A stretch of DNA of 64,000 bases from Podospora anserina (lineage: Eukaryota), in the NCBI GenBank assembly GCA_017654855.1, contig CM030336.1, positions 4,402,001 to 4,466,000 on the forward strand, in the 5' to 3' direction. The notes beneath the pieces are model-generated. The model was not told where the DNA came from. It saw only the letters and a program-made list of their open reading frames with translations, and searched no databases. Within the stretch, counting starts at the first letter, position 1. The number at the start of each line of letters is the position of its first letter. Below, piece after piece: positions 32,101 through 61,313 of this stretch. The translations under genes were made by a program, and so were the position numbers.

Positions 32101-32719
32101 TGCCCGTGATGGTGTGTGTTTTGCCACAGCCCGTGGCGCCGTAGGCAAATACCGTGGCATTGTATCCGTCCAGAACACTGTCCAGCAACCCCCTGGTTGT
32201 TCCTTCGTACAAGTCGGCCTGCGTCGCATTTTCGTCGAATACTCTGTCGAAAGCAAAGACTTGGTCCTTGACCTTCTTTCCGCGGGGAACGACTGATCGG
32301 GAGAACTTTTGGACAGGGTTGTCCTCGGGCGGATCGAAAACTCTGCAGAGTGGTAAGCTCGAGTGTAGACTATCATCTTGTTTGTTGGCACGTACAGGCA
32401 TCTGTCGTCGACGACCTTGATCACTGATCTGAGCCCACGTTGGTGCAGTTTGGGAGTGGGAGCCGCGGCGAGGGAGCCATCGCCAAGAAATACTGTGCTA
32501 TCGTCGTTCCTGACTCTGTAGGGGGGGTTTTGTCAGTTTCCAGACTCGGACTGCTCGAGGGAGGGGCCAGATATGCTCACAGTTGCGCAGCTTCTCGAAT
32601 GGTGAAAGGTCGCACTCGCACTAGTTCCCGTCAGTAGGTAAACAAACACCCAGCCCACCAACTCTTCCTCCGGTGTGTGCCCTACCTGCGACCATAATAG
32701 ACGAGGCATTGGAGTCCAT
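29183..32719 (-). CDS. Kinesin-8 family motor (Kip3/KipB-like), 4 exons
   Basis: ATG at 32719 (MDSNASSIMVA|VRVRPF); GATGCGKT P-loop, SSRSH, DLAGSER, HVPYRNSKLTRLL; three short 5' introns. Confidence 0.93.
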
Positions 32720-32830
32720 CTTGGGCCCTCTGGGTGCCAGCCGCCCTCGCAGCGCGGGCGACCTGGCAGAATGTGGGACAACAAAGCCGTCAACAAAGGC
32801 CCTTCGGTAGTTTCTCGTTCTGGCGGTGTG

Positions 32831-32869
32831 TGGTGGTGGTGGTGGTGGTGGTGGTGGTGGTGGTGGTGG
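32831..32869 (-). repeat. (CCA)13 microsatellite in the kinesin 5' leader/promoter
   Basis: (TGG)13 run on + strand. Confidence 0.9.
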
Positions 32870-33391
32870 GTGGGTGTATGTGATGCGACGAGATAAAGGT
32901 AAACCAACAAGAAAAGAGCGGAAAGGAAAGAAAAGGCACCGTTGCCTCTGTCGAACGCAAGACTCCCAGAAGGAAAGACAGGCGACTCCAGCGAAGGAAA
33001 GGAAAGAAATGACGTCCCGGTCCTGGCTTCGTTTCTTCCTTTAGGTGTCTGAGGCGGCTGTTGATTGGCGCATCTGGCTGTTTTGGACACTCCACTATTT
33101 GGTTTCCACGGCGACGTGGCTAGTGCAGTCTGTGCTGGCACCAGCCCCACTTTGACCCCGCCGGCTTCAGGCACAAAACGCCTTGGCACCGCTGGGCACC
33201 TGATGACACTTGGGGCCAATTGCTTGTTTTGACTGCCTGAGGCTTCACTTAGACCAAATTCACAGCTGCCTTTTCAAGATGACTTCAAGTAGGTCTCATT
33301 TACAACTACGTATACAAATAATCATACCATCTCCGCTCCCCTTCATATACTCATGTCATCTTTAACCATTAATCCACCAGCCAACACCCCC

Positions 33392-36300
33392 CTACTGCCC
33401 ATGGCCCCCCTTCGAGTCCCCCTTCCACCCCCCAATAGTATCAACCTCATTCAAAATCGTCGTCCCATTATACCCCCCAACCTCATCCCTCCCCACCGAA
33501 AAGCTCTCCGGCGGCCCAAAATAACTCTCCCTCACCCCTCCCACATCAATCACAACCTTCTGCACCACCACCCCCGGCATCAGCGCCCAGATCCTCAGCG
33601 TATACGCCCCCTCCCTCGGCACCTCAAAAATACTAGTAGTGTACCGTCCCCTAGCACCCCAAACCTGATCCGCCACCGCATTCTGCCACCCAGCCGGCAT
33701 CCCCGTCCCCACCGTCGGCCCAACAGGCCTCACATTCACCACCTTTTCGTCTCCCCCTTTAGGGTACAACGCCACGGCATACTCAAGCGGGTTGTAATCA
33801 CCTAGATAGTTCAGCGCCGGGGAGATGTAAAGCGTGACATTAGCAGCCGAGTGGTTGCTGAAAAAGTAAACATCATACTCCAACGCCGGGGCGGTCTCGA
33901 CAGTAAGTTTCTCCGTGTTGAGGGGCACCATACCCACACCTGAACCAGTTCGGCCAAAGTGAGGGAAGACCTCGTACGTGACGTTATTGCGGTTCCATTC
34001 CGACTCTTCCTTGGGGGGGATGATGGCCTTGAAGTGGGAGCCCGAGATCGAGACGTGGCCGTCCGACTCGACGAAACCCTCTGTAAAGTTAGAGGGGAGA
34101 GAGCGGAGTTTGACGGGGACGTTGACGCGGGGGAGACCGAAGCCGTATCGGTCCATGCCGCGGCAGGGGGTGGTGACGTTGATGGGGACGGTGGAGGAGT
34201 TGATCTGGGGGTGGGCCCAGTCGATGGTAATGTACACCCTGGTGTCGGCCGTGTCGGGGCCGACGGTGCCGTTGTACTGGGAGAGCTTGACCCACGGTTG
34301 CCAGGGGGAGGCGGTCCAGGCGCAGTCTTGGGTGCCGCGGGAGAAGACGTCAAAGTACCTGGTGATGGGGCCATAAGGTTCCATGACTGGGACGGAGAGC
34401 TGGTTGGCCGAGTTGGGGTGGTACTTGTCGTCTCCCTGGACGGTGGCGTTGGAGCCCTCGACACCGATACCGACGTGGCCAGCGAGGGAAGCAAAGTCGG
34501 TTTGGACGTGGACCATAGCAGGGAGGGTGTTCCTCATGGGCTGCTGCCAGTAGCCATCAAAGCCGAGATGCGTCTGGTCCATGAAATGCTTCCACTTTCC
34601 ATCCAACAGCGCGTCCCATCTCCTCGTCAGGTTGGCATCTTCCGAAGACCAAGACAACACCTCCGAAATGACCTTGTTCGCCGCGTTCCTCTTCTGGCCC
34701 GAGTAAAACATATTCCTCGCGCCCCCAATCTGAATCTTGTTGACGATCTCCCCCGCCATGATCGGGTGAAGAATCGTCTGGAAAAACGTCGGCTGCTGCT
34801 CAACCGGCAGATCATCATAAATCGCCTGAGCCTCCTTGTGCAGCTCCGCCCACTGATACAACACCGCATCCGCCTCCCCGTAGTTGATCTGCGAATACAC
34901 ATGTGGCTCGATCAACTCAAACTTCCTCCTCCCCGCCAACATCCCATACCTCTCCAAGATATCCCCAATATGCACCGCATGCTTCGGCCCATACTCCCTC
35001 GTAGCAAACAACCTCGCCCACTCCTCCGTGCTATCCTTATGCCACCTCTTGTAATCATACGCCAGATCAAAGTAGTGACTGATCGGCACCTCCAAAGCCT
35101 TCATGTCCCCCACATTCACAATCCAAATCCTATCCGCCCCCCTCGCCGCCGACAAATGCATCTGCTCCGTCGTCTTGCTCAGCTGGTTCGTGTTAATCCA
35201 CTTGTAACTCCTCGTATCCCCCACATAATCAAAGTGATAGTAAACCCCCGCACCCCCCGACCGCTCCGTCTCATTCAACAGCGGCAACCGCCTCACATTC
35301 CCCCAGTTATCATCCGCCCACAAAAGCGTGATATCCTCCGGAACCTCCAACCCCGCAAACAAATACGTCATGACCTCCTTGTACAAACACCACGCCTGAG
35401 GAACAGTAGTAACATCCTCCACCTCGAGCCCCTCAGCCATAATCTTCCGCTGGTTGTCCACCAAAACGGTCAACATCTCGACAATGTGCTCAACCCCCAA
35501 CCCCTCAATGTGCGTATCCCCCGTCCCCCTCATCCCCACAGTCCACAAGCTGTTCCTCGCATAAGGCTTCGCCCGTTGAACTCCATACCGGAAATACTCA
35601 TCAATCGTCTCATTATTCTCATTATACGCCCACGGCAACGGGTAAAATTTCCCAAACTCATTCTGCGCCCTCATCAACGGCTCGGTATGGCTCGTCCCAA
35701 GCACAATCTCAAACGCATCCGCCAGAGGTTGGTTCCCCGGGTCATCAACCATAAACATCGTCGCCCAAAGCGCAGGCCACAGGTAATTCGCCCTGTTGCG
35801 GAGCAAGACCTCAAAGATGAGGCTGTAAAACGCCGGGCCGTAACCAGGACCGTAAGGGGTATCCTCCCAGTGGGAAGCAACCCAGTTGGTGAGAGCGGGC
35901 TGCTCATCGTTGAGGAAAAAGCCGCGGTACTTGACTGTGGGGGAACCCTGCACCTTCTTGTTCTTGATGACATAAAGGTTCTTGCTCTTCTTGGGCGGGG
36001 TGTCGGCCCAAAAGTACCACGGGCTGACGCCGATTTGCTCGCTGACGTCGTAGATGCCGTAGATGGTGCCGCGGGGGTCGGCGCCGGCGATGACCAGGGC
36101 TTTGGCGGTGCCTGGGATGGGGTTCTCGACCACCTGGCTGGTGAATGCTTCCCACTTGCCCTCCGTCTCGGAGACGTCGACGGCCCCCGAGGCAATGAGG
36201 GCGTCGATGATGGCCGAGTGACCGATAGTGCCGGCAATAATAACAGTGTCGGCCGGGGATGGTTCAAAAAAGTCTGGGCCGGTGAAGTTGGCTGTGCCCA

Positions 36301-36675
36301 GGGTAGAGAACTGTGACGTTGTCAGTAAATTAGGCCTTCATTTCCCGAGCTGTTCTGACGACTCACAAAGGTGTTGTTCTTGTTGTTGATGGGGTTATAC
36401 GTGTACGTAATCGGGGCCGCGCCAGCCTCGCCATTGCTGACAGTGTAGTTGATCCCCGTGACCCTGCCGAAATCCCGAGCAAGATCGTGGGCAGCACGGA
36501 CAACACCCCAGTACTCATCCGGAGCCACAAGAATCTGGCCCGTAGACACAGATCCGCCGGCAATCTGGAGAACAGAACCAGTGGCATTAGGAGAAATGAT
36601 GCGTTCCTGGCCCAGACCTGCCACCACGGAGCTGAAGGCGAGCCAAAGGGCTCCCTTCACACCCGTAGCGAACAT
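33392..36675 (-). CDS. Secreted GH115 xylan alpha-1,2-glucuronidase, 2 exons
   Basis: Signal peptide; GVSPWYFWAD, YRGFFLNDE, ANYLWPA, GTSHTEP, GMRGTGD, LWADDNWG, GVYYHFDYVG, WIVNVGDMK; intron 36366..36311. Confidence 0.92.
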
Positions 36676-45334: not shown

Positions 45335-46558
45335 TCAAGTCAACCATGGAATCCTCTCAGATAACGGATTAGTCCAGATCAGCTCCGGGCAGGGCACATC
45401 GGTGGCGTGGGTTTCGAAGGTACCAAGGCTAGTGATATGGAGGTCTTGTAAGCATTGCAGAATCCATAGAAGTGGCGTGACCGTCACGAATATAATCTCC
45501 ATAATTATACACCCAAAAACAACAACAAGAAGACCGCCGACAGGTATCGCCAGAAGGGTGCACAATCTTTCGCGGTTCCTCAACTCGAACACCATCAATA
45601 GCCCAACAACCATGAAACATGCTCCGTAACCAGCACCTATGCAAGCTAGGAGCGGCATTGTAGAGATCCAAGAATCCAGCATCCAGCTCCAACCTCGTAC
45701 ATAACCGTCGTGGAAGAGAAAAGAAATCGAGGGATGATAGTTGAAGATGAGGCAAACCAGCCGAGTGGTTGCAATATGCTTGAATAGCTGAGAAAAGCCC
45801 ACAGCCTCCGTGACCTCACTTGGACAGACGTCTCGGAAGATAAAGCCAACAGAATCAATCGTCTCTGTGTTGAGCTATTCGGGAACAGGTTGATCGAAGA
45901 TTGGGACGCGCAAGATGTAACACAGTGTAAAGATGCCAGCAACCAAACCTGCGCAGGCTAGCTCGAAGATTCTTTGACTCACGGTGGAAACAGCGTTCAT
46001 TTCCCTTCGTCGCTGGTAGAGGACAATGGTCCCAACACATAGGGCTAGGAAGAAGGTAGCTGTGATCAGTCTCCCGACCATCTCTGCGGTTTCCTTCCAG
46101 GTCTCAGGTACTGGATTCCACGTTTGTTCCGTCCCGTCTCCAACCAAAAGTTGATTCTCTCTCGAGGTTGACTGCTGGTAGGTGAGCCGATTTGGGGGCA
46201 CCTTGGCAAAGAGACATCGCAAATTCGCCTTTAGTCTGGCTTCTGGATTGTGATCACCTCGGTTTCGATCGAGAATTGGACTAAACCTCCGGGAAAGTAG
46301 GCCGAATAGGTAAATACTGAAGATGAAGACCAGACCCAGGACATATGATATCACATAACTCAGGGGCGCGAGCCAAAATTACAGCGGACTCCATGTGAAG
46401 CAGGTCTTTTCCTTGATCTTGAGAAGTCGGTAATAAGAGAAGAGCGTAGTGACGCTGACAACCAAGAGCTTGATATACAACTCTCCAGTGTCGCGTCGTT
46501 CATCGATGGGACATGGCTGCTGGGGTAAAGTGATTGTTTTTAAGATGTGGTCGCCCAT
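45335..46558 (-). pseudogene. Multi-pass membrane protein gene with two in-frame stops
   Basis: One frame from ATG 46558 to stop 45335 (408 codons), broken only by TAA 46381-46379 and TAG 45877-45875; several hydrophobic helices; C-terminal VPCPELIWTNPLSERIPWLT. Confidence 0.6.
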
Positions 46559-47169
46559 CTCTGATCATGATTCAGCTGAGTTGTAGAATTCTCAGAAAGA
46601 AAATGAGGCAAACTCACTCAGGTTTTGATGTGTTGGACTTGTCCAGCTCATAAGCTATTGGCTTGGCGGTCGGTGGCTGAGCTATTGGTTTTCGTGGAGT
46701 TCGACGCTTCACTGAGCTCCTCTCCTTGACAGTCATTGGGCACCATATTGTAAACAGAGGCCTTTTTAACAATACAATAATTGTGCCTTTCATGGGAAAG
46801 CCTGACAGGCCTTTGGTGCTCGTGGAGCTTTGTGGTTGACTTCCAACTGAGGGAGCTTATCTTGCCAGCTTATCCGAGTGTCGCAGTAAGAACTGAGGCC
46901 GCCCCTTGCAAAATCACGACCAACCACAGGCCGATAAGACCCTACAAATAACTTAGGTACGCATAAGCGCCTGCTCGGCAAGGCTGCCTGCGCAATTCGC
47001 AAACCCCGTCGCCAGTTTACCTAGACGTCTCGATGCACCGCCACCTCCGCTCAACACTGAACACAATGAAAGGATTTCCCCCGCTGCTGCCCCTGGAGTC
47101 CTGAGGAACTCTCGAACATCGCTTGGAATTGTCATATTTTCAATATCCAGCATCTCTTACTCTGATGAG

Positions 47170-49168
47170 ATGGCCGACCCACTTTCAATCGTTGGTGCTG
47201 TGGGCTCGGTGGCAGGCATCATCGATGTCCTGTCACGATCCATCAGCGCCATTGCAACCCTCCGCAACCAGTACAAGGATGCCGACCTACTATTCATGAA
47301 CCTCACCAGTCAGCTGAGCGTCCTACGAACAGGGCTGGTCAAAATAGCAGAATGGGCCGAAACACAACCAGAGCCTCACTATCAGCTAAAAATGGACCTG
47401 GATTCGGTGCTGATGTGCTGCCAAATCCTGGCCAGCAAACTCGACAACCACCTCGAGAGTCTGCATCAGGGACGCGTGCGGTTGAGCAGCATTGGAAAGT
47501 TGAAGCTCGCTTTGAACGGATCCAATATCGACGCCATCCAAAAGATGCTCGGACAACAGACGGCCACCTTGACACTACTCCTAGCAGCCTGCAACACCAA
47601 ATCACTTGCTGAACAACGAGAGCTCCTCGAGGCGCCATCCACACGAACCGCCATCGCCGCGATGGAGCAGGACTCGGCCTCTCTGATCGTGCACGAAGAC
47701 AGAACTTCAATATGCACCGTGGAGACTGACACCCTGTCGAGACTCTCTGCCATCTTCCCATTCGACAGCCAACTGCTCACCACAAAGGTTTACGGTCGTG
47801 CCTGGAGAACAACCTTCTTGAACCGTGGTCCAAAAACATCCCGACGAACATTGTCTGAAGCAACGACCCTATTGCCAGCTGAAACCGAAAGGAGAATGAC
47901 GATAACGATACACCGAGTCCCCAACAGAAGGAACAGTACTAGCAACATCCCCATCGGCCCTCCTTTCAATTCGAAAGTCAAAATCCTGCTTTTAGGAGCT
48001 GGGGGTTCAGGTAAGAGCACGCTGTTGAAACAAATGCAGTATGTCTGGGGCAACCAGAGTCAAATGCCGATGTCTCATGACAAGATCCGCATTAGACGTG
48101 AAGTTGTCCAGGAACTTTGTCGCTTTTTCTATTTACTCCTGTTTGGCCAGGAAGACGCTGTGGCTCAACTGGTGTGTGGAAAAATGGTTAGTCGCCTGCC
48201 CCTGGAGCCCTACCATTCATGTTCTGGACGCTGACATTATGGACAGGACATCCTCAAAGACGCCATCGCCCTTCATGAGATGGACAACTTTGCAGATGAG
48301 GATGATATCATCTTTTGTGATCGGGTGGTTCCGCTAATCCGCGAGGTTTGGGCTGATGAGACCTGGCGCGCTCGTGCAATGAAGAACCTGAAGAAGAAAA
48401 GGTCAAAGCCGCCATTTGATGTTGAATAGTAAGGTGGCGCCCTACATCATGTGTCTTTTCTCAGGTGCTCGGCTAACATTTTCTCTTGTAGTTTCATGCG
48501 CCATCTTGATCGAATTTCCGACAAAAACTACGTGCCAACTGACCAGGACTTGATGCACATTTCACCAGTGGTCCAAACACTAGGCATCTCACGCTCTGTC
48601 TTCACAGTTGGCAACATACCATATTCTGTATACGACGTTGGAGGCTCCCGATCCGAAAGACGGAAATGGATTCACGAATTCGAAGATGTTGATATTGTCC
48701 TCTTTCAGGCTCCTGTAGGGGCATACGATGAACGACTACGTGAAGATAAATACTCGGTACGTTATTTGCCTACCTAAAAGTCCGCTCTTGCACAATTGCT
48801 GATATATACCCTCCTTCAAGTTCAACATGGAAGAGTCATTAAACCTTTTCGAGTCCCTTGTCAACTCAAGATGGTTCTCCAACACAACATTCTTTGTCAA
48901 CTTCACAAAAAGAGACCTCTTTGAGCAAAAGGTCAACAGTAGTCACGTCCCAATTTCTGACTTTCATCCTGAGTATCAAGGAGACCCAGGTGATGTGAAA
49001 GCAGGGGTTCAATTTTTCATTGACGAGTTTCAAACCAGAGTTGAGGAGCATCCGGGCGGTTCTATCCATATGACTGTTCTTGATACGACCGACACAGCTC
49101 AGGCGACATTGTTGTTGCAAAGGGTTGTTCAAGTGGCTGAGGCGAAGAGGAAGTCTGCCTTTATTTGA
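47170..49168 (+). CDS. HeLo-like (fungal STAND N-terminal) domain fused to an atypical G-protein alpha domain, 4 exons, 603 aa
   Basis: N-terminus MADPLSIVGAVGSVAGIIDV followed by a helical region; G-alpha motifs KILLLGAGGSGKSTLLKQM, YVPTDQD, DVGGSRSERRKWIHEFEDV, MEESLNLFESLVNSRWF, NFTKRDLFEQK; introns 48187..48246, 48429..48491 and 48757..48820 give 1812 nt in frame. Confidence 0.85.
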
Positions 49169-49207
49169 GTGGGATTCGAGCAACACCAAGACTTGAAAAA
49201 TACCCAA

Positions 49208-50044
49208 CTATTCGTTCTTCTCACTCTCGTGTCGTTTGACATGCACCTCTGACACGCCATGATAGGCTGGCAGCTCTGGGGTATACTGTGTATCTTCCAA
49301 CTCCCAAGCTTCTCTGTGATGTGACAGCTCCATGGTCCCGTTGTCTGCTGGCATCTCCCACGGGAAATGGTCGTTGGAGCCTAGCTCTAATTGGGCCTCC
49401 TTTTCATCATCCATTACGTGCGGGCTTTCCTCAGGGCTTTTATCACGTCTACTCCGTCGTCGATGTCGTCGGATGACAACATAAATCCCGATGGCAATGA
49501 GCAAAACGATGATAGTGGTAGAGACGATAACCGCTATCTGGGCTCCCTGACTCAAGCCAGAGTTCCGGGTCCCAGCTTGGGCCCCAGGAGACGGCAAGCT
49601 AATAGGCGGGTTGTCCCTTCCCATCGCATCGGGCGAAGTGTCTGTTACGATTGTCGATGACGACCCCGCGCCTCTTTCGGCGTGTGTTGTGAGACGTGCC
49701 AAAGAGAGAGCCGCTGAGCTGCTTGCAGGATCGAAAGGCAGGCATAGTTGACTGGGCAACAGTTCCCTGTTAAGGATTAGTCTCACAGATAGCCTTCGCA
49801 TGAAAGGTGAGAGAGAGGACTGCTCACCTCCAGTATCCTCGTGACAAGCACGGTAACCTTCAAAGTTGGGACATGGCCTTACAGGCTCCGTCAAACTCAA
49901 GTTCTCGTCCCAACCTGGGAGGTGGCATGTCCTCTCTCCGCAAACGTATCCTATCGGATAACACCCGTCGATTGTGATGTTAGGACTACAAGCGAAATAG
50001 TCCTTCCTGCCGCATACAACTGATTCTGTGGTGTTGGTGGCCAT
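49208..50044 (-). pseudogene. Cys-rich, single-TM surface protein gene, frameshifted if its intron is spliced
   Basis: Cys-rich N-terminus, S/T stalk, GLSQGAQIAVIVSTTIIVLLIAIGIYVVIRRHRRR TM and basic stop-transfer; splicing the 61-nt intron 49827..49767 gives GNCCPVNYAC and then a stop before the TM. Confidence 0.5.
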
Positions 50045-50576
50045 CTCAAAGTCTTCCGAAAGGTGTTGTAAGTCCAGTTGTGAGACAAGAAGAGCTGCGC
50101 AGGAAAGAAAAGCAGGTCTCCTGTGGCCTGGAATTTAAAGTGGTTCCCAGTTAGCCCAAATTCATACGCTTGCACCGTCGTTCCCCAGCTCGAGCGTTAC
50201 ATTCAAGCTTGCCTCATCACCCCGCTGTGCTACCCAGGATGCAGGTTAATATACTCGCAGTGTGTATGATTGGCTCGCTGTTGCGGTATTGGGAGCTATG
50301 TCTCAACCGACTTACTCGAATTTGGCTGCCTGACCACCTTGCCTACCTTGGGTACTTACAAGTACCCATCCTCGCAACAGATATCTTTCGCCGTGTTACT
50401 TGGGCCAATTACTCGCCCGTGGACTTGATCAAGATCTTTCTAAAGAACAGCTGATATGTAATTCTGAACTGAAGATGACATCACATTGATAGAGCCATCC
50501 CCAATCCTAGGAGAGGTATTCAACGTTCGACTGGTGTATACACATAACTCCCCATCCTTGTAGTTGACCGTCTGAC

Positions 50577-50975: not shown

Positions 50976-53875
50976 TGTGGTGATTTGGTCTTTGCCGGTC
51001 AGAGGATAGGTTCCAAGTTGAAAGACGAACCTTGCGAAGCGAATGGTTGGAGGTCCAAGTCCACTCTATTTGTATCCCCCCTCCCCTCACACCAGTGCCA
51101 GGGTCCCTGACTCATCAGTCCACAGTCTAGACCATATTCTTGCTCGCAAATGGACGAAAATCTCGTTTCGTTACCGATAATTCTTTTCTCGATGTAACTT
51201 CGCTACGGTTCCTAAAGACAAATGGGAAGGGCTTCTGGCCTGCCCAGACACGGACAGTTGTAAGATCACGCGACCAAAAGGTTATTTTTACCTCCTGCTT
51301 GGACGAATGTAACATCTTTAGCCAACCGAAAGTTCTAGGTGTGGGAGCAGCACGAGTAAAAAGTTTTGATATTTACCCGGACTGAATGGGAGGATGGTAG
51401 GTCTGTCCTGCATGCCAAGCTGAACCTGGGGCTGGTCGTCATATCATTTGTCTTTTCCATTTGACCAGATGAAGGCGGTCAATGATCCAGCAGCCGAATA
51501 CCCGTACATCTTACAAGTTGGGATGTGGACGGTTGGCTGTGTTGTCCTATGCCGGGGTGTTGGACGAAAGAATTATAAAACAAAGAAAACTGCGAGTGAC
51601 GCCTCGGGCAAAGGCAATAAGTGATGGCGTTGGAAATGTACCAGAATGATCAACCAAGGCTCAAAAGCCATGCAAAATCGACCAATTCTGTGAGTCTGGC
51701 TGCCCCATTAAGCTGCGGCCATCGGTCGAGATACCATTCGAGTGTTTTGCAGATCGAATTGGACACTCGTGAATCCACACCAAATGCCGCGGCCAATCCC
51801 AGCAAAACCTTGCATGGCCCATTCTTCGTAGATCCAGACGCATTTCTCTGTTCCTTCCGTTCCTTCGCATATGGATCCAGCTCATGTGGAGATCTAAGTA
51901 CTAGTCCAATTAATTCACTGTCGTGAAAAAAGAAGACTTTATGAATTTCCGGGCACTCAAACAGCTCGCCCTTCTCTTCCCAAAACTCGGTAACCCCATT
52001 AAAAGTTTAGGGTCACATTACAGGCAATAATACTGTCATCTTGAGAACAGAAAGGAGCGGGTAAAAGGCGACGCTGGCAGCAGACCCATTCTCTAGAGCT
52101 TACGTCATGGAGCTATGTTTGGGCGGCTTCTATACATGTGGCAAGTGTACAGCCCCCTGAATATACAGGTCTTCTTCATGCAAGAAAGAAGAGTCCAGAG
52201 CAAATTACATCACCCTGTTGCTAAAACCTCTGCGCCACTTTGCTCTTTTTTATAGACCGTATCAGACTGAGATGCAGGTGAGACACCGAGTCTGGAGTCG
52301 ATGCTGCACAAGTGCCTGGGCACAAAGAGAGATCTATTTGCATTAACGAAGCTCAAAGGAATATGCATCAATTCCACTCGAGAAGAGACCCAAGAACTTT
52401 CCAAGTCTCCAAGCCGACATATGATGATCTTCGAGTTTCCACATGATCGGACATGGAGACAAAGGGGTCAGGGGAAATAAGGTTAAATCCTACTGACGAC
52501 GACATGATGATTGTTGGGATGGCGATTGTCAACTGTGAGGTTCGATCGCGATGATGGGAAACGATGAAGTCGATATTTTTGTCGATCCATATCACGGCTA
52601 CAGAGCATTCCAGATGGCCAAGGCTCGCAAAAGGACGACAAAAATCTCTCGCTCGCTTGTGATTCCTAGAGTGGTCGAGACAAACCTTGACAGCTTCCTT
52701 CTCCCAGCTAGGGTCTGTGCGTGATGCGTGGTGGATGGAGATTCTCGGCCTGCAAACGAACCGTCGATGACTGGCTATCGATGGACAGCGGGGATGCCAC
52801 GGACCCTTGCCCCTGCTTTTCCTTGCAACTGCCATCCCGAAAAAAGAAAGGGTTGGTCTTGGCAGGAACGACAGGGCAGCAGCAGTGGAACATCACCTTG
52901 CTCGATAGCCTGGAAGATCTGAGCGTCGCAGATCTACGCCGAAAAGGGTTCCCACCACGTGCGGGTCAACCAGTGGAAGTTCTCCCAAAACCTCCCTCCG
53001 ATCAATATATTTGCATCAACCCCGCACTGTTTCGAAGTCAACGCCTCAACAACCCTTTGGGACCGCAGACATGCTCTCGGACTCCCCTCGGGTCCTCGAT
53101 AACACCCTCTTGTGAAGAGAGACAACCTCTGATTGGGGCTCTGACGCATTGACATCAATGGCGGCTTGGAGATATCGACATCTCGAGACAAAGCGCCATT
53201 GTCGTGGGTGCGGCACTTTTTTCCGTCATCAAAGACAAGAAGAAAGACACACACACTGTTCGAGAAGCTCCGGAAGGGCTGGCGAACACGAGACACGAGA
53301 CATCCCGCCAAAATGCAAACGGTTGACCTGAGACCCTCCGACCTTCGCCTTGCTGCAAGGAATTTCGACCCCGTGAATGTCATGGCAAACAGAGGAATAC
53401 CACCCGAGTGGGTAAAGAGAGCAGATCCTCATCCTTCAGCCGAGCCGTACGACTCGCAAAAATGCCTGCGATGCCGACGCCCGTCGGATGCTCAGCTGTT
53501 GTCGTGGACGCACTGATGGCCTCAGCTGGTTGGCCCACATGGCTTGCGTGCCATTATGGATACATAGCGCCGGGTCAAAGCAAACAACGATTGACGCCTC
53601 TAGCCAAATTGGTGAGATCAGTCCGTTTCAGTGGTCATAGGTACCGCCGAGTGGCGTCCCGGCCCGCATTGTGGTCAAAGCTGCTTCTCCTGACCGACTC
53701 CTCTCCCCCCCTCGATCGCTATTAGCAAGCAAGCCCTACATATCTTGGCCGTCTCGTCCCGTTTCTTGGTCCGCTTCTCTCACTTCATCACGAATGTAAA
53801 ACGAATCAACGTCCGCCCGGGAACTGCTCCCTCTCCTCACTCCCTCTGCGGTCTCCGAGACTGCTCACCGTCACC

Positions 53876-55203
53876 ATGCCGCTCAAAGTTCCAGAATGGC
53901 TTGACTGGTACAAGAAGCCCGAGTACCGGGACATCAAAGAATATTCGGCACACGTCAATGCAGGCGAGCGCCCTCAGAGCCCGACTCCGGCTGCCATTCC
54001 AAGCCGCTTGAGGCTCGACCGCATTCTCGCAAACAAGACATGCAGTCCGATGTCCCTTTATGACTTTTACATGTACCTCAAGTACATTGAGTTCTCGGCC
54101 GAGAACCTCGAGTTCTACATCTGGTGAGCACTTACACTTGACCTTCGCCCGCCAACAGGACTAATGGATGACACAGGTACAAAAACTACGAAGCATCCTA
54201 CGAAAAGGGTCTCACGCCAGTTCACACGAAGGAATATGGGGCTATTCCCAGCGCAGCAGAGTCGACTTCATCCATTGTCAAGGAAAGCCAGGCAGCCAGT
54301 TCATGCAGTACCAAAGATCCAGAAAACGGCGATGATGAGGACGCAGACCCCGAGAAGACGCTTCACCGCATCTCCCAGCTCATCGTTGCCAGCGCCATGT
54401 GCAATTCCCGCTCGTGCTCACCCGCCGCCCTTCAACTCACCCCCGACCAGTCCAATGGCAAATCCATCCAGATCACCTCCTGCACCTCCGACTCTGCTCC
54501 AGCCACCATGAAGCTCATGAACTCCGACGGCCAGGTCAGCCGCCACGAACTCGACACCATCATTCATCTCTTTCTTATGCCCTCCGGAGAGAAGGAGCTC
54601 AACATCCCCGCCGCTCTTCGAGCCCAGACTCTTGCCGACTTGCAGAAGTCGACTCACCCCTCCGCACTCAAACCAGTTGCCGACCATGTCTACGGCCTCA
54701 TGCACAACTGCTCCCACCGCAACTTTGTCCGCCTAGGAGTAGGCAATGGGACATTCGAGACAGTCTGCGTGGCAACCATGCTGGGCATTGCCAATCTCAT
54801 TGCCGGCTATGTCGTCGTCATGTGCCGCGCCTTTGTCCCCTACCGGGGCTCCCACACCCGATGGGAGGCCTGGGCGGCGTGGCCCAACTGGTGGCTTGGT
54901 GTCTCGCTCATTCTTGCTGGCCTGCGAGGCAGCTGCTTTTTCCTTTTGTTGTTTTCCAAGAGGCAGAGGCTGCCGTGGGAGAGATTTGATGACAACACGG
55001 ACAGCGTTTTGAGGAACGAGGGAGGCTTCTTGAAGTCGGTGTCGAGGTTGATGATTTTCGATAGGAGGCTGCGGGTCAAGGAAAAGTATCTGAGGAGGCT
55101 ACAGAGAAAAATTGTGTTGCAGAGCTTGGTGGGAGGGGCGATCTTTGCGACGATTTGGGTGGCTGTTTTTATTTTCTTGCCGGTTTGGAAGGAGACGGTT
55201 TGA
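53876..55203 (+). CDS. RGS-domain protein with C-terminal transmembrane helices, 2 exons
   Basis: SLYDFYMYLKYIEFSAENLEFYIW and IIHLFLMPSGEKELNIP RGS motifs; intron 54124..54176; about 3 TM segments at the C-terminus. Confidence 0.85.
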
Positions 55204-58851: not shown

Positions 58852-60625
58852 TCAAAGCATTACAAAGCCCACACCGCTGGACGTGTTCTCCTCCAGCAAA
58901 TTCCTCTTGTTGACACCACCGTGGACAGGGTTGGCCTTGTAGTTGAACAGATAGTAGTGAAGCTGCCCATCACCGGGGTGGAACTTTTGCTGCTCCAAGA
59001 ACAGCGAGTTATCCATCAGCGACAGCGCATTGAACACGTCAAACTTGGCCTTCTTGGCAAGAATGAGCATATCAGCCATGAGGGCATTAAGACGAGCCTT
59101 GAGGGCCGGGCGGTCGTCAGGGCTCTTGAGAGCAACATCCGAGGCGTAGTAGAAGAGGTAGGCGGCGCGAATGGCAGAGTGCTTCTTGGACCGGATGACC
59201 GACGATTCGAGGCAGTAGAAGGAGAAGAAGTCGGTGATTTTGCCGTCGTCGCCCTGGAGACATGTTAGCGCAGAACAGACATAAACGGGGCGAGATGCTA
59301 ACCTCAACAACATATGACCAAATCACACGCTCACCAGGCGCCTCTTTGTTATGCAACAGCCAATGCGACACCTCTTCCTTGGACCACACTGGAGTCAGAT
59401 CAAAGCGCTTCAGGTACGCCTCGACGAGAACCTGCACCGCGTTGAGATCCCTGGCTTCCATCTCACGGAGCCCACGAGTCGACGTGTTCTCGGGGACCCT
59501 GAACCTAATATCTTGCAACTTGGGGGTGCTGTTGGTTGGGCATGGGCTGAAGCCAACCTCATACAGCTTCATCCAGTTCAAGGCGCGGTGGTAGTATCGG
59601 CAGGTACTAACTGGCCGAGGGAGGACAATACCGCCCGTGTAAATGGCCTGCCAGATGCCATCAAGGTTGATGCGCCGTGTAATCTCCTTGATGAGCACTG
59701 GCGCAAGGCGCTTCCCTCTGAGCTTCTTGTGAATGCAGAGGAAGTTGACCTCGGAGCTTTGAAGAATCTTGTCCCGTACCCGCATCTGGGTTGGGATGGC
59801 AGAAATGAAAGCGCAAAGGGTATCGCCAGTGCGAATCCCAACGTGCCATTCCTTGCGCCATCCCGGAGACAGCAAAGACCACCTCAGCAGAGAGCCAGAG
59901 TACTTGAACCTAAACATGGCCTCGTCATCCTCCACGTAGTGACCATACAGAAGCTTCTCTACCTCTTCCAACTGCCTCTCGTCCGTGAGATCCATCGTGA
60001 CCCAGCGGAACTGTGGAAGCGCAAGTTCAATGGGTTCGGTTGGAATGTCCTCCACTTTTTGGACTCTGACGGGACCCTCCTCGATGAGCTTGGGCTCCTC
60101 ATCGAACTGAGGTACTGGTTGTGTGCTCCAGAACTTGTACGAAGCCATATCCTTGCGGTTCTTGCCACTCGTTGCCAAACCGGTCATGATATCCTGTAAC
60201 TTGAGCTTCTTGAAGGCTTCGATGGCTTTGGCCGTGTTGTCCGACGAGCCCGGGGCATCCTGTGCGCCGAGAAGTTCATTCCGCAAGGCAGGGTTGAGGG
60301 TGAGGAATTCAGCGATCTGGTCGTTTGAGAGGCCCGCGATGGCCTTCTTGGGGTCGGCCTCGACATCGGCGGCGGTCAGCTCTTTGGGAGGGCCTCCGCC
60401 AAGGGCTTGAGCAAGAGCTTGTTTGGCCTTCTTCTTCTTGCTCTTCTTCTTCTTCTTTGCGGGAGCTTCTGTGTTTGCGCCTGCTTGTTGTGTTTCCTCC
60501 GCTTCGGACCCCGACTCCCCTTCCGACTCAGCTGTGGTGCCCTTGGCAGAGCTTAGGTTGACGAGAGCTTCAGCAGCCTTCTCCTGCTCCTTGGTCGGGT
60601 CAACCTCTTTCGATTCGGTCGACAT
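58852..60625 (-). CDS. NMT1: Glycylpeptide N-myristoyltransferase, 2 exons
   Basis: YKFWSTQPVP, HYVEDDEAMFRF, EVNFLCIHKKLR, FDVFNAL, GDGQLHYYLFNY, C-terminal GFVML; intron 59302..59254. Confidence 0.97.
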
Positions 60626-61313
60626 GTTTGGGCAATATCTGGGACGTGGTAACCAATGTGCGAAGATTCGAGATGCGTGAAAGATTCAAGTCTCTCCTTT
60701 TTGAAACTTCGGCAGCAGAGTTGTGGTGTCGTGTCGGCAACAAAGCTTGGTGTTTCAAGCAGGTGTGCGGGGCAGCTTCCAGGTTACTTCGACGCGGGCA
60801 CCCCCCCCCTCCAAGCTTTGGGAGTTTGTGATGGTGGGTCTCAACCCCCAGCTCTTTATCGATAAGTCTTATGCAGTTTGCTCGCTTCACTGTTGTCAAC
60901 CGTATTGCGTCGACCGACACTCATCATCAGTAGGGATCCCGAGATATACAGGCCTCATTTCGCTTTCTTAAAGCATACCAAATGTCAAGATACAAAATCA
61001 TCCAGCCTTGTTGAAGTCACACAAAAAGTATGGATCGAGTGCTCACCTCAGATTGCGGGGCGATGAGCTTCTGATTGGTTACGCAGCAAATGTTCAATGC
61101 AAACGACAGCGCTCCGCCGCCACTGTTGCCTGTCGCCGCCCAAGTGTGCAGTGCTCAGTTCCCGACCCCTGCCGTCCTCTCGGTGTTTGTGGTTCAAGGG
61201 GCGTTCAGCCGCTTCTCTTTATTCGCAATCTATTCAGCTTTCTTTTTCATGCTCGTCCAACATCATCTCAATCAAGCACCTACATCTCAGGCCAGACGGT
61301 AGCAATCGCAAGC

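What the first reader, a model, noticed from the sequence alone, without database searches (positions are those of the whole stretch)
47170..49168. HeLo-like death-domain / catalytically degenerate G-alpha fusion: candidate GTP-switched fungal immune protein
Seen: an intact 4-exon gene. Its first ~200 aa begin MADPLSIVGAVGSVAGII and look helical, and it lacks the MG myristoylation start of canonical G-alpha. The rest is a complete G-alpha fold with altered catalytic sites: P-loop GAGGSGKST (canonical GAGESGKST), switch I DQDLMHISPVVQTLGI with no Arg finger (canonical DxLRxRxxTxGI), DVGGS instead of DVGGQ, and TKRD instead of NKxD. Established: HeLo/HeLo-like domains (HET-S, HELLP, N-termini of fungal NLRs) are membrane-targeting cell-death effectors, and loss of the switch-I Arg or switch-II Gln blocks G-alpha GTP hydrolysis. 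Inference: the G-alpha replaces the NACHT/NB-ARC switch or serves as an integrated decoy/sensor, making a non-canonical signalling or programmed-cell-death module rather than a GPCR transducer.
Basis: partly seen in the sequence, partly recalled or inferred. Interest (0 to 1): 0.85.

Follow-up and report, generated by a model that had tools for sequence, protein, structure and literature searches.

The report
HeLo-like domain fused to dead G-alpha
A real, expressed Podospora gene joins a HeLo-like (cell-death-type) helical head to a complete G-protein alpha domain that has lost its GTP-hydrolysing residues, and it belongs to a widespread fungal family that no paper I could find describes.

Summary
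Window 47170-49168 (+) is a 4-exon, 603-aa gene. Spliced RNA-type contigs in 4 of 4 runs join exon 1 to the G-alpha exons.

- **G-alpha domain (aa ~267-592):** a full Pfam G-alpha match (orthologue P0001, 3.6e-73). It keeps GxxxxGKS, the switch-I Thr, DVGG and TKRD. It lacks the switch-I Arg and the switch-II Gln.
- **N-terminal domain (aa 1-~215):** a confident helical bundle (pLDDT 82.9). The window's own match to PigL_N/Helo_like_N (PF17111) is sub-threshold (19.1 bits against a cut-off of 27.2). However, 35 of 61 relatives hit PF17111, and the ESM Atlas neighbours are PigL_N clusters. The fold matches to MLKL and CC domains lie within helical-bundle noise.
- **Family:** the fusion occurs in at least four Pezizomycotina classes. 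0 of 36 alignable members keep DxGGQ, and many have lost the P-loop, DxxG or NKxD.
- **What was not found:** no NACHT or NB-ARC domain. Differences between sibling species are 2-5 aa. Nothing shows an immune or cell-death role.

The "GTP-switched immune protein" reading is a hypothesis. A non-lethal, XLG-like signalling role is a serious rival. No paper with both HeLo-like and G-alpha terms was found. Verdict: new variant of a known kind.

The parts
47011..47169 (+). 5' untranslated region (approximate transcript start)
   Evidence: The spliced contigs begin at 47011 (X1), 47012 (X2), 47076 (X9) and 47118 (X10). Contig ends are not mapped transcript starts.
47170..48186 (+). Exon 1 (aa 1-339): HeLo-like/PigL_N domain, linker, G-alpha P-loop and start of the helical domain
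   Evidence: The junction 48186/48247 is spliced in 4 of 4 runs.
47170..47814 (+). N-terminal helical domain (aa 1-~215), PigL_N/Helo_like_N subfamily, with a conserved Gly/small-residue first helix
   Evidence: PF17111: 9.3e-4, 19.1 bits, below the cut-off. 35 of 61 relatives hit PF17111. AF2 pLDDT 82.9, with helices 4-34, 36-65, 71-100, 107-115, 118-141, 146-154 and 156-176. G9 is kept in 53 of 61 relatives and W/Y35 in 57 of 61.
47815..47967 (+). Linker (aa ~216-266), low-confidence and probably disordered; holds RRNS at aa 253-256
   Evidence: pLDDT is below 50 over aa 173-267 in the full-length model. The alignment is poorly conserved here.
47968..49165 (+). G-alpha domain (aa ~267-603, across exons 1-4): GAGGSGKST, switch I without Arg, DVGGS, TKRD
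   Evidence: PF00503 matches. Alignment to solved G-alpha 6ne6_A over aa 270-577. Motif table.
48187..48246 (+). Intron 1 (60 nt, GT..AG)
   Evidence: Skipped in 4 of 4 runs.
48247..48428 (+). Exon 2 (helical domain)
48429..48491 (+). Intron 2 (63 nt, GT..AG)
   Evidence: Skipped in 4 of 4 runs.
48492..48756 (+). Exon 3 (switch I, switch II)
   Evidence: PF00503 1.1e-27. Also.
48757..48820 (+). Intron 3 (64 nt, GT..AG)
   Evidence: Skipped in 4 of 4 runs.
48821..49168 (+). Exon 4 (G4 TKRD, G5 region, C-terminal helix, stop TGA)
   Evidence: PF00503 7.3e-23. Also.

Best explanation
SHOWN. This is an expressed, single-transcript Podospora gene; the P. anserina S mat+ record PODANS_5_11490, cited as Pa_5_11490 in PMC6709928, covers only aa 402-603. 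It encodes a two-domain protein.
- Domain 1 is an N-terminal helical bundle of about 215 aa from the PigL_N / Helo_like_N (HeLo-like) superfamily. It starts at residue 1 with a conserved hydrophobic first helix rich in Gly and small residues.
- A linker of about 50 aa, probably disordered, follows.
- Domain 2 is a complete G-alpha domain (Ras-like plus helical parts). It keeps the nucleotide- and Mg-binding motifs (GxxxxGKS, switch-I Thr, DVGG, TKxD). It lacks both residues that G-alpha needs to hydrolyse GTP, the switch-I Arg and the switch-II Gln.
- It belongs to a Pezizomycotina-wide family with this architecture. The catalytic Gln is missing in every member examined, and many lineages have lost nucleotide-binding motifs altogether.

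INFERRED, my best guess at the mechanism. The G-alpha half no longer works as a timed GTPase. It acts as a stable nucleotide-bound or partner-binding regulatory module. The HeLo-like half is the output: it brings the protein to a membrane and, when released, may permeabilise it, as HeLo, HeLo-like and MLKL domains do. A conformational change in the switch regions, caused by nucleotide state or by a binding partner, would free the first helix. This control route would need neither an NLR nor an amyloid motif.

Confidence. I put about 0.9 on the 'shown' part and about 0.35 on the mechanism. The figure given for this explanation is for the whole statement.
For: - Gene and transcript. In 4 of 4 runs one contig has all three introns removed and joins exon 1 to exons 2-4.
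- G-alpha domain: 3.6e-73, profile positions 19-331 of 333; 279 solved G-alpha sequences at E<=1e-20.
- Lost Arg and Gln.
- Family-wide loss: DxGGQ in 0 of 36 alignable rows. A switch-I Arg pattern in 5 of 35. GK[ST] in 15 of 44. DxGG in 17 of 36. NKxD in 2 and TKxD in 12 of 35. All three binding motifs are kept in 8 rows, including the Podospora clade.
- HeLo-like assignment: PF17111 hit by 35 of 61 relatives, best 3.7e-8. Sub-threshold hits in the same register in the window protein, P0004, P0007 and P0008. ESM Atlas top clusters are PigL_N at 0.95, sharing 198 of 256 features.
- N-terminal model: pLDDT 82.9, with four long helices and a short helix between the third and fourth. PMC9815663 (passages read) describes this layout for MLKL and HeLo-likes.
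- Fold matches: MLKL 4btf Z 10.3 (rmsd 2.3, 100 aa), MLKL N-terminal domain 6ux8 Z 9.7, Rx-CC 9.3, NRG1.1 CC-R 8.8, MLA13 8.7 and AtMLKL3 8.3, among the top 32 of 48,161 chains.
- Family size and range: 632 representative clusters at E<=1e-3 for the N-terminal domain. 43 of the 150 best carry G-alpha. Named members come from Sordariomycetes, Dothideomycetes, Lecanoromycetes and Eurotiomycetes.
- Other partners of the same N-terminal subfamily include HET (P0217, domain order checked) and PNP_UDP_1 (P0183). PMC9815663 lists PNP_UDP as an NLR-linked effector domain; that HET is a cell-death domain is recalled.
- Fast divergence between genera: 86% down to 45% identity within Podosporaceae-like fungi.
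Against: - No functional test exists, so toxicity, membrane binding and GTP binding are all unmeasured.
- The window's own PF17111 score is below Pfam's cut-off. With aa 1-260 or aa 1-230 as query there was no hit at all.
- Foldseek found nothing at E<=0.001.
- In the wide fold search, unrelated bundles such as IncA (Z 11.9) and designed proteins (Z 10-12) score above MLKL. The tool warns that Z under about 13 is unspecific for helical bundles. HET-S HeLo was not among the 50 rows shown.
- I saw none of the hallmarks recalled for fungal allorecognition or immune genes. Sibling species differ by only 2-5 of 603 aa. No NACHT, NB-ARC or repeat domain is present. No neighbouring NLR appeared among the 10 large ORFs scanned.
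- The same N-terminal subfamily also occurs with PH-type domains (P0083). That fits a membrane or signalling role as well as a death role.
- The one published mention places the gene among those down-regulated in a sexual-development mutant (PMC6709928).
- Some degenerate family rows may be faulty gene models rather than real decay.
Confidence: 0.45

Rival explanations
1. Non-lethal atypical G-alpha, analogous to the plant extra-large G proteins. The N-terminal bundle serves only as a membrane anchor or oligomerisation module, replacing myristoylation and the alpha-N helix. The GTPase-dead G-alpha domain acts as a constitutive or nucleotide-independent scaffold in G-protein, RGS or cAMP signalling, for example during sexual development.
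For: - Pa_5_11490 is listed among genes down-regulated in dPaRid micro-perithecia (PMC6709928, one passage read).
- The protein is highly conserved among sibling species.
- The N-terminal subfamily is also fused to PH-type domains.
- There is no NLR context.
- An RGS-domain gene lies about 4.6 kb downstream.
- Plant XLGs show that a G-alpha domain with an unrelated N-terminal extension can have functions distinct from canonical G-alpha (bioRxiv 10.1101/2025.06.18.660248, abstract start in the listing).
Against: - PigL_N/HeLo-like domains are described as pore-forming effector domains (PMC9815663, passages read).
- The first helix is strongly conserved, more than a simple anchor would seem to need.
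- Many family members have lost even the nucleotide-binding motifs, which fits poorly with classical signalling.
- The adjacency of the RGS gene was not shown to be conserved. In one Fusarium record the neighbouring gene merged into the model is a sugar transporter.
Confidence: 0.3
2. Integrated decoy or guard. The G-alpha-like domain mimics the fungus's real G-alpha subunits. When a competitor's toxin or effector that targets G-alpha binds or modifies it, the HeLo-like domain is released and kills the cell.
For: - The catalytic residues are dispensable family-wide while the fold is kept.
- Divergence between genera is fast.
- The same N-terminal subfamily is linked with HET and PNP_UDP domains.
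Against: This is purely inferential. No effector is known, and no signs of diversifying selection or presence/absence variation were seen in the five species compared. Decay of the switch regions in many members would also destroy mimicry of a real G-alpha.
Confidence: 0.1
3. Annotation artefact: two separate genes, an N-terminal 'fungal N-terminal domain' gene and a short G-alpha fragment gene, as the older P. anserina S mat+ record suggests (199-aa PODANS_5_11490, plus a 354-aa exon-1 read-through ORF).
For: The cluster holds a 199-aa NCBI protein covering aa 402-603 and 354-aa ORF calls that correspond to exon 1 read into intron 1.
Against: - Spliced contigs in 4 of 4 runs from four studies join exon 1 to exon 2 to exon 3 to exon 4 in frame.
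- 603-aa models exist in four sibling species.
- The same two-domain architecture is found in distant classes.
- The G-alpha P-loop lies in exon 1, so a 199-aa product would be a fragment of a domain.
Confidence: 0.03
4. A decaying relic: a duplicated G-alpha that lost its function and is drifting, with no selected role.
For: The catalytic residues are lost. Many family members have badly degenerate motifs and long branches.
Against: - The frame is intact and nearly identical in five Podospora species.
- The gene is spliced and present in the contigs of all four runs laid.
- Full-length domain matches persist across four fungal classes.
- The N-terminal motifs are strongly conserved.
Confidence: 0.05

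Closest known systems
HeLo-like (HELL / Helo_like_N, now Pfam PigL_N PF17111) effector proteins of fungi, such as HELLP-type proteins and the N-termini of fungal NLRs
   Same: An N-terminal helical bundle that begins at residue 1 with a hydrophobic first helix rich in small residues. The sequence relationship holds at family level. The predicted bundle with a short helix between the third and fourth long helices matches the description in PMC9815663.
   Different: The window protein is below Pfam's cut-off. The partner is a G-alpha domain, not a C-terminal amyloid motif or a NACHT/NB-ARC plus repeats. No adjacent NLR gene was seen. Cell-death activity is untested here.
Canonical fungal heterotrimeric G-alpha subunits (groups I-III)
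   Same: A full G-alpha fold with a helical insertion. The P-loop GKS, switch-I Thr, DVGG, RSERRKW and a TKxD version of G4 are present.
   Different: - There is no MGxxxS start and no N-terminal helix in the usual place; a 266-aa extension stands there instead.
- The switch-I Arg and switch-II Gln are absent, with a 2-aa insertion in switch I.
- Evolution is much faster (45-86% identity between related genera).
- Placement relative to groups I-III could not be resolved, because only 2 fungal canonical rows were in my tree.
Plant extra-large G proteins (XLG1-3)
   Same: A G-alpha-like domain carried behind a long unrelated N-terminal extension, with functions distinct from canonical G-alpha (abstract starts of PMC13185490 and bioRxiv 10.1101/2025.06.18.660248 in the listing). 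That XLGs have altered catalytic residues and roles in immunity is partly recalled.
   Different: The N-terminal extensions are unrelated: HeLo-like here, and a Cys-rich region in XLGs (recalled). The origin is presumably independent. No XLG sequence was compared here.
MLKL (animal and plant) and the CC / CC-R domains of plant NLRs
   Same: A four-helix-bundle executioner domain held by a catalytically dead regulatory domain; in MLKL this is a pseudokinase, here a pseudo-GTPase-like G-alpha. Fold matches: MLKL Z 10.3 and 9.7, AtMLKL3 8.3, Rx-CC 9.3, NRG1.1 CC-R 8.8.
   Different: The Z scores lie within the range of unspecific helical bundles, and there is no sequence similarity. The regulatory domain is of another fold. 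The analogy of mechanism is an inference.

Membership tests
G-alpha (Pfam PF00503) | Profile match above Pfam's gathering score over nearly the whole profile | tested here: met
   Orthologue P0001 (5 aa different): 247 bits against a cut-off of 48.8, profile positions 19-331 of 333. Window exons 3 and 4: 97.5 and 81.7 bits.
G-alpha (Pfam PF00503) | Ras-like domain with an inserted helical domain | tested here: met
   Continuous alignment of aa 270-577 to solved chain 6ne6_A residues 10-308. Helices 302-408 lie between the P-loop and switch I in the model (moderate confidence).
G-alpha (Pfam PF00503) | Nucleotide-binding motifs G1 GxxxxGK[ST], G3 DxxG, G4 NKxD | tested here: inconclusive
   GAGGSGKST and DVGG are present. 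G4 reads TKRD, with Asn replaced by Thr. Binding itself was not measurable here.
G-alpha (Pfam PF00503) | Catalytic switch-I Arg and switch-II Gln (names and roles recalled) | tested here: not met
   Switch I reads MHISPVVQTLGI where canonical rows read LRxRxxTTGI. Switch II reads DVGGS where they read DVGGQ.
G-alpha (Pfam PF00503) | N-terminal lipid-modification start (MGxxxS) and N-terminal helix for G-beta-gamma | tested here: not met
   The protein starts MADPLS. The G-alpha match begins at aa 267, after a low-confidence linker. The MGxxxS rule for groups I and III comes from PMC8877820 (passage read).
HeLo-like / PigL_N (Pfam PF17111) | Profile match above Pfam's gathering score | tested here: not met
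   Window aa 1-160: 19.1 bits, E 9.3e-4, against a cut-off of 27.2. Window aa 1-260 and aa 1-230: no hit.
HeLo-like / PigL_N (Pfam PF17111) | Homology to the family shown through relatives | tested here: met
   35 of 61 close relatives of the N-terminal domain hit PF17111 at E<=0.01, best 3.7e-8. The next families have 1 member each. ESM Atlas: the ten best named hits share the PigL_N/SesA set, top score 0.95.
HeLo-like / PigL_N (Pfam PF17111) | Four-helix bundle of MLKL/HeLo type with its first helix at the very N-terminus | tested here: inconclusive
   The model has pLDDT 82.9. MLKL gives Z 10.3 and 9.7, but generic bundles score as high or higher and Foldseek found nothing at E<=0.001.
HeLo-like / PigL_N (Pfam PF17111) | Membrane targeting and cell-death activity | not testable with these tools
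   Needs expression and localisation experiments.
Fungal NLR (STAND) proteins | Central NACHT or NB-ARC domain plus C-terminal repeats | tested here: not met
   Only P-loop-sized, sub-threshold NACHT and nSTAND hits were found: aa 272-297, 18-20 bits against a cut-off of 26.7. They lie inside the G-alpha P-loop. No repeats were found.
Plant extra-large G proteins | Cys-rich N-terminal region plus a G-alpha-like domain of the plant XLG clade | not tested
   No XLG sequence was fetched. The comparison is by architecture only.

The most novel reading that the evidence does not exclude
Pezizomycotina possess a so far undescribed class of regulated-cell-death or immune proteins. In them a HeLo-like pore-forming head is gated not by an NLR or an amyloid signal but by a GTPase-dead G-alpha-like domain. 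That domain acts either as a nucleotide or partner sensor, or as a decoy of the cell's real G-alpha subunits that traps antagonists' G-alpha-targeting factors.
Probability: 0.2. Interest if true: 0.85.

Novelty: new variant of a known kind. Interest (0 to 1): 0.62.

Why it matters
HeLo, HeLo-like and MLKL-type domains are described as the membrane-attacking end of regulated cell death in fungi, animals and plants. In fungi they are known to be controlled by NLRs and amyloid motifs (PMC9815663, passages read).

A large, conserved family that couples such a domain to a G-alpha fold without catalytic residues would add a new control logic. It would also give fungi a counterpart to two known arrangements: MLKL, where a dead enzyme domain restrains a four-helix bundle, and the plant extra-large G proteins.

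There is a practical point too. [quoted passage not shown] This mislabels them. The P. anserina S mat+ reference record also holds only a 199-aa fragment of the gene.

Tried and rejected
- **Complex prediction.** The N-terminal domain against the G-alpha domain gave no verdict (score 0.11, mark 0.34). I do not use it as evidence either way.
- **Full-length fold.** With a 7-row alignment the model was poor (pLDDT 61.7, pTM 0.45). It says nothing reliable about contacts between the domains.
- **Foldseek against the PDB.** No match at E<=0.001. HET-S HeLo was not among the 50 rows of the wide VIA search. That is an absence of a listing, not evidence that the folds differ.
- **Word-based homologue searches.**
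  - They reached few relatives.
  - The 'longer' search with the N-terminal profile found only 2 proteins of 665-2000 aa, and none had NACHT. The tool itself calls this weak evidence.
- **G-alpha tree.**
  - I used 29 fusion rows and 42 canonical rows. Family rows covering fewer than 240 profile positions were left out.
  - The tree splits the fusion rows into two groups.
  - An AU test gives p 0.020 against a single clade.
  - Ten end branches are very long, the quick model has no mixture, and only 2 canonical rows are fungal. I therefore treat the origin, and the relation to fungal groups I-III, as unresolved.
- **Whole-genome search.** No genome is held for this window, so paralogues in the same genome could not be counted.
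- **Sequencing-run search.**
  - It failed five times because the machine was busy, then answered.
  - No listed holder is on record as RNA.
  - The RNA nature of X1, X2, X9 and X10 is inferred from intron-free contigs.
- **Literature.**
  - No paper holds HeLo-like or HeLo terms together with G-alpha or heterotrimeric terms.
  - The listings for 'PF17111' and 'Helo_like_N' show no title on G-alpha. I opened only PMC9815663 from them, and it has 0 occurrences of 'G-alpha', 'GTPase' and 'PF00503'.
  - One search was too loose to be useful.
  - MrGPA4 of Metarhizium (PMC8877820) turned out to be an ordinary 353-aa group II G-alpha.
  - Supplementary tables were closed. The supplement of PMC6709928 may hold the expression values for Pa_5_11490.
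- **Considered and dropped.** A C-terminal amyloid motif is not possible, because the C-terminus is the G-alpha fold. The NACHT-like hits are P-loop matches only.
Full report
**1.

Reading window 46800-49500 and splicing in a script gives four exons on the + strand: 47170-48186, 48247-48428, 48492-48756 and 48821-49168. The introns are 60, 63 and 64 nt, all GT..AG. The CDS is 1812 nt and encodes 603 aa. My first attempt started one base late and gave a garbled frame; I corrected it.

- MADPLSIVGAVGSVAGII at the start.
- GAGGSGKST at aa 276-284.
- DQDLMHISPVVQTLGI at aa 417-432.
- DVGGS at aa 448-452.
- TKRD at aa 517-520.

Pfam G-alpha matches the end of exon 1 (3.5e-08), exon 3 (1.1e-27) and exon 4 (7.3e-23). 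The orthologue P0001 (Podospora bellae-mahoneyi, 5 aa different) matches G-alpha at 3.6e-73 over profile positions 19-331 of 333. Against solved structures, 279 distinct G-alpha sequences match at E<=1e-20. The best alignment (6ne6_A) runs through aa 270-577, so the helical insertion is included.

**2. One gene, one transcript**

The 90% cluster of P0001 has 14 members:
- 603-aa models from P. bellae-mahoneyi, P. pseudoanserina, P. comata and P. pseudopauciseta, differing from the window by 5, 2, 4 and 3 residues.
- An identical 603-aa protein (P0210).
- 354-aa proteins that equal exon 1 read into intron 1.
- The 199-aa record PODANS_5_11490 of P. anserina S mat+, which covers only aa 402-603.

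I laid the contigs of four runs from four studies on 46500-49800. In 4 of 4, a single contig starts at 47011-47118 and removes exactly the three predicted introns (48186/48247, 48428/48492, 48756/48821). It continues past the stop codon to at least 49768. Intron-free contigs are RNA-derived, although the runs are only guessed to be RNA. The splice from exon 1 to exon 2 to exon 3 shows that the HeLo-like part and the G-alpha part lie on one mRNA.

The contigs run on into the convergent neighbour gene, so they do not define the 3' end. Additional internal starts are not excluded.

**3. The G-alpha half**

I compared the protein with canonical rows.
- Kept: the P-loop GKS, the switch-I Thr (QTLGI), DVGG followed by RSERRKW, and the Asp of G4 (TKRD).
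- Lost: the switch-I Arg, where there is a 2-residue insertion (HISPVVQT), and the switch-II Gln, replaced by Ser.

That these two residues are needed for GTP hydrolysis, and that their loss gives GTPase-deficient G-alpha, is established knowledge that I recall rather than tested. There is no MG start. The G-alpha match begins at aa 267, after a stretch with pLDDT below 50 in the full-length model (aa 173-267).

**4. The N-terminal half**

Evidence from sequence:
- Pfam gives the window's aa 1-160 only a sub-threshold PigL_N (PF17111, formerly Helo_like_N) hit: E 9.3e-4, 19.1 bits against a cut-off of 27.2, profile positions 2-149 of 209.
- Queries of aa 1-260 and aa 1-230 give no hit.
- Relatives decide the matter. 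A phmmer search of aa 1-230 against 1.84 billion representatives found 632 proteins at E<=1e-3 and 259 at E<=1e-10.
- Of 61 aligned relatives (A2), 35 hit PF17111 at E<=0.01, best 3.7e-8. Every other family was hit by one member only.
- The ESM Atlas feature search puts PigL_N clusters first (0.95, 198 of 256 features shared).
- PMC9815663 (passages read) equates PF17111 with 'HeLo-like' and calls HeLo and HeLo-like domains pore-forming.

Evidence from structure:
- With A2 as alignment, AlphaFold gives a confident model (pLDDT 82.9, pTM 0.71). The helices are 4-34, 36-65, 71-100, a short 107-115, 118-141, 146-154 and 156-176.
- A short helix between the third and fourth long helices is what that paper describes for MLKL and HeLo-likes.
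- Foldseek finds nothing at E<=0.001.
- The wide VIA search lists MLKL (4btf Z 10.3, rmsd 2.3, 100 aa; 6ux8 Z 9.7), Rx-CC (9.3), NRG1.1 CC-R (8.8), MLA13 (8.7) and AtMLKL3 (8.3) among the top 32 of 48,161 chains.
- IncA (11.9) and designed bundles score higher, and the tool warns that Z under about 13 is unspecific for helical bundles.

The fold is therefore compatible with HeLo-like but does not prove it.

The first helix is strongly conserved in A2: D3 in 43 of 57 filled rows, P4 in 48 of 56, G9 in 53 of 61, D19 in 42 of 61, and W or Y at position 35 in 57 of 61.

**5. It is a family**

Among the 150 best N-terminal hits, 43 also carry a G-alpha domain by a local HMM. Most of the others are shorter than 300 aa and are probably exon-1 fragments.

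Named members come from four classes:
- Sordariomycetes: Podospora, Cercophora, Triangularia, Rhypophila, Monosporascus, Fusarium, Clonostachys.
- Dothideomycetes: Massariosphaeria, Clohesyomyces, Corynespora, Lophiotrema.
- Lecanoromycetes: Xylographa, Lecanora, Calogaya.
- Eurotiomycetes: Aspergillus mulundensis.

All carry generic names.

The same N-terminal subfamily also occurs with other partners:
- HET: P0217, with the HeLo-like part at aa 1-182. P0095 looks like a merged model of a HET gene and a fusion gene.
- PNP_UDP_1: P0183.
- PH-type domains: P0083.
- No Pfam match at E<=0.01 besides, at most, a weak PigL_N hit: P0086, P0090, P0104, P0185, P0189 and P0067.

I found no NACHT or NB-ARC partner, but the search for long proteins was weak.

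**6. The G-alpha half decays across the family**

In 52 family rows aligned to a G-alpha HMM:
- GK[ST] is present in 15 of 44 alignable P-loops.
- DxGG is present in 17 of 36 alignable switch II regions.
- DxGGQ is present in 0 of 36. Three rows have a Gln at the fifth place, but without DxGG.
- The switch-I Arg pattern is present in 5 of 35.
- NKxD is present in 2 of 35 and TKxD in 12 of 35.
- All three binding motifs are kept in only 8 rows: P0001-P0004, P0007, P0008, P0140 and P0197.

The six canonical control rows have all motifs. Some degenerate rows may be faulty gene models.

The Podospora protein therefore belongs to the minority that probably still binds nucleotide. The loss of the catalytic Gln is old and general.

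Divergence is fast for a G-alpha. Identity to the window's exon 1 is 86%, 81%, 69% and 45% in Cercophora samala, Triangularia setosa, T. verruculosa and Podospora fimiseda.

A quick tree (29 fusion and 42 canonical rows) splits the fusion rows into two groups. An AU test gives p 0.020 against one clade. Given the many very long branches, a model without mixture and only two fungal canonical rows, I leave the origin open.

**7. Context**

- A convergent gene at 49208-50134 (-) has no Pfam match.
- A gene with an RGS domain (28.4 bits against a cut-off of 23.9) and hydrophobic C-terminal segments lies at about 53.7-55.2 kb (+).
- An N-myristoyltransferase gene lies at 59117-60685 (-).
- A kinesin gene and a GH115 gene lie upstream.
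- No NLR-type gene appeared among the 10 large ORFs scanned.
- Whether the RGS neighbourhood is conserved could not be tested.

**8. What it most likely does**

Shown: the gene, the transcript, the two domains, the lost catalytic residues and the family.

Inferred:
- The G-alpha half is no timed GTPase. It is a stable nucleotide- or partner-binding module.
- The HeLo-like half is the output, which targets a membrane and may permeabilise it.
- Release would follow a conformational change in the switch regions.

This parallels MLKL, where a dead kinase domain restrains a four-helix bundle; that is an analogy from recalled knowledge.

I give the mechanism about 0.35. A non-lethal role like that of the plant extra-large G proteins gets about 0.3. 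It is favoured by three things:
- The only published mention, down-regulation in dPaRid micro-perithecia (PMC6709928, one passage).
- The conservation among sibling species.
- The fusions with PH-type domains.

A decoy or guard role gets about 0.1. The two-gene artefact and the relic readings are largely excluded.

A complex prediction between the two halves gave no verdict and is not used.

**9. Novelty**

Searches of the held library found no paper that combines HeLo-like or HeLo terms with G-alpha or heterotrimeric terms. In the listings for 'PF17111' and 'Helo_like_N', no title concerns G-alpha. The one paper I opened from them, PMC9815663, has no occurrence of 'G-alpha', 'GTPase' or 'PF00503'. 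Subscription journals and supplements were not searchable.

Both domains are known; the combination and its family-wide pseudo-GTPase trend appear undescribed. I rate this a new variant of a known kind, with interest 0.62.

Noticed in passing
window 53726-55203 (+): A gene with an RGS domain lies about 4.6 kb downstream of the G-alpha-like gene. The match is PF00615, 28.4 bits against a cut-off of 23.9, in ORF 54172-55203. Hydrophobic C-terminal segments follow, and a probable first exon lies in ORF 53726-54127. It resembles Rax1/RgsB-type proteins (recalled). Whether the adjacency is conserved is unknown.
   Followed up: partly
window 59117-60685 (-): An N-myristoyltransferase gene (NMT 2.2e-67, NMT_C 1.3e-23) lies 10 kb from a G-alpha-like gene that has itself lost the myristoylation start. 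This is probably coincidence.
   Followed up: no
window 49208-50134 (-): A convergent neighbour encodes a 308-aa ORF with a Cys-rich N-terminal part, a Ser-rich stretch and one hydrophobic segment; it has no Pfam match. The RNA-type contigs of the G-alpha-like gene run into it and show a loose end at 49768, probably an intron of that gene. The 3' ends of the two genes therefore overlap or abut.
   Followed up: partly
window 46500-46900: An upstream transcribed unit has a 57-nt intron (46561-46617, CT..AC on the + strand, so GT..AG on the - strand). It was seen in contigs of 2 of the 4 runs.
   Followed up: no
window 47170-49168; records P0208 and P0204: The P. anserina S mat+ reference record holds only a 199-aa product (PODANS_5_11490, aa 402-603 of the real protein). 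Databases also carry 354-aa exon-1 read-through ORFs. [quoted passage not shown]
   Followed up: yes
window 47926-47937 (aa 253-256, RRNS): The linker holds RRNSTSNIP, conserved in P0001-P0003 but not in P0004. R-R-x-S is the consensus of cAMP-dependent kinase (recalled), so this is a possible regulatory site between the two domains.
   Followed up: no
PMC6709928 (passage); gene Pa_2_10260: The same paper names a second 'alpha-2 subunit' gene, Pa_2_10260, as co-regulated with Pa_5_11490. Whether it is a paralogue of this fusion family or the canonical group II G-alpha could not be checked, because no genome is held for this window.
   Followed up: no
window 29183-36337 (-): A kinesin motor gene (8.2e-113) and a GH115 glycosyl hydrolase gene (9.6e-135) lie upstream. 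They are ordinary genes with no link to the finding.
   Followed up: no
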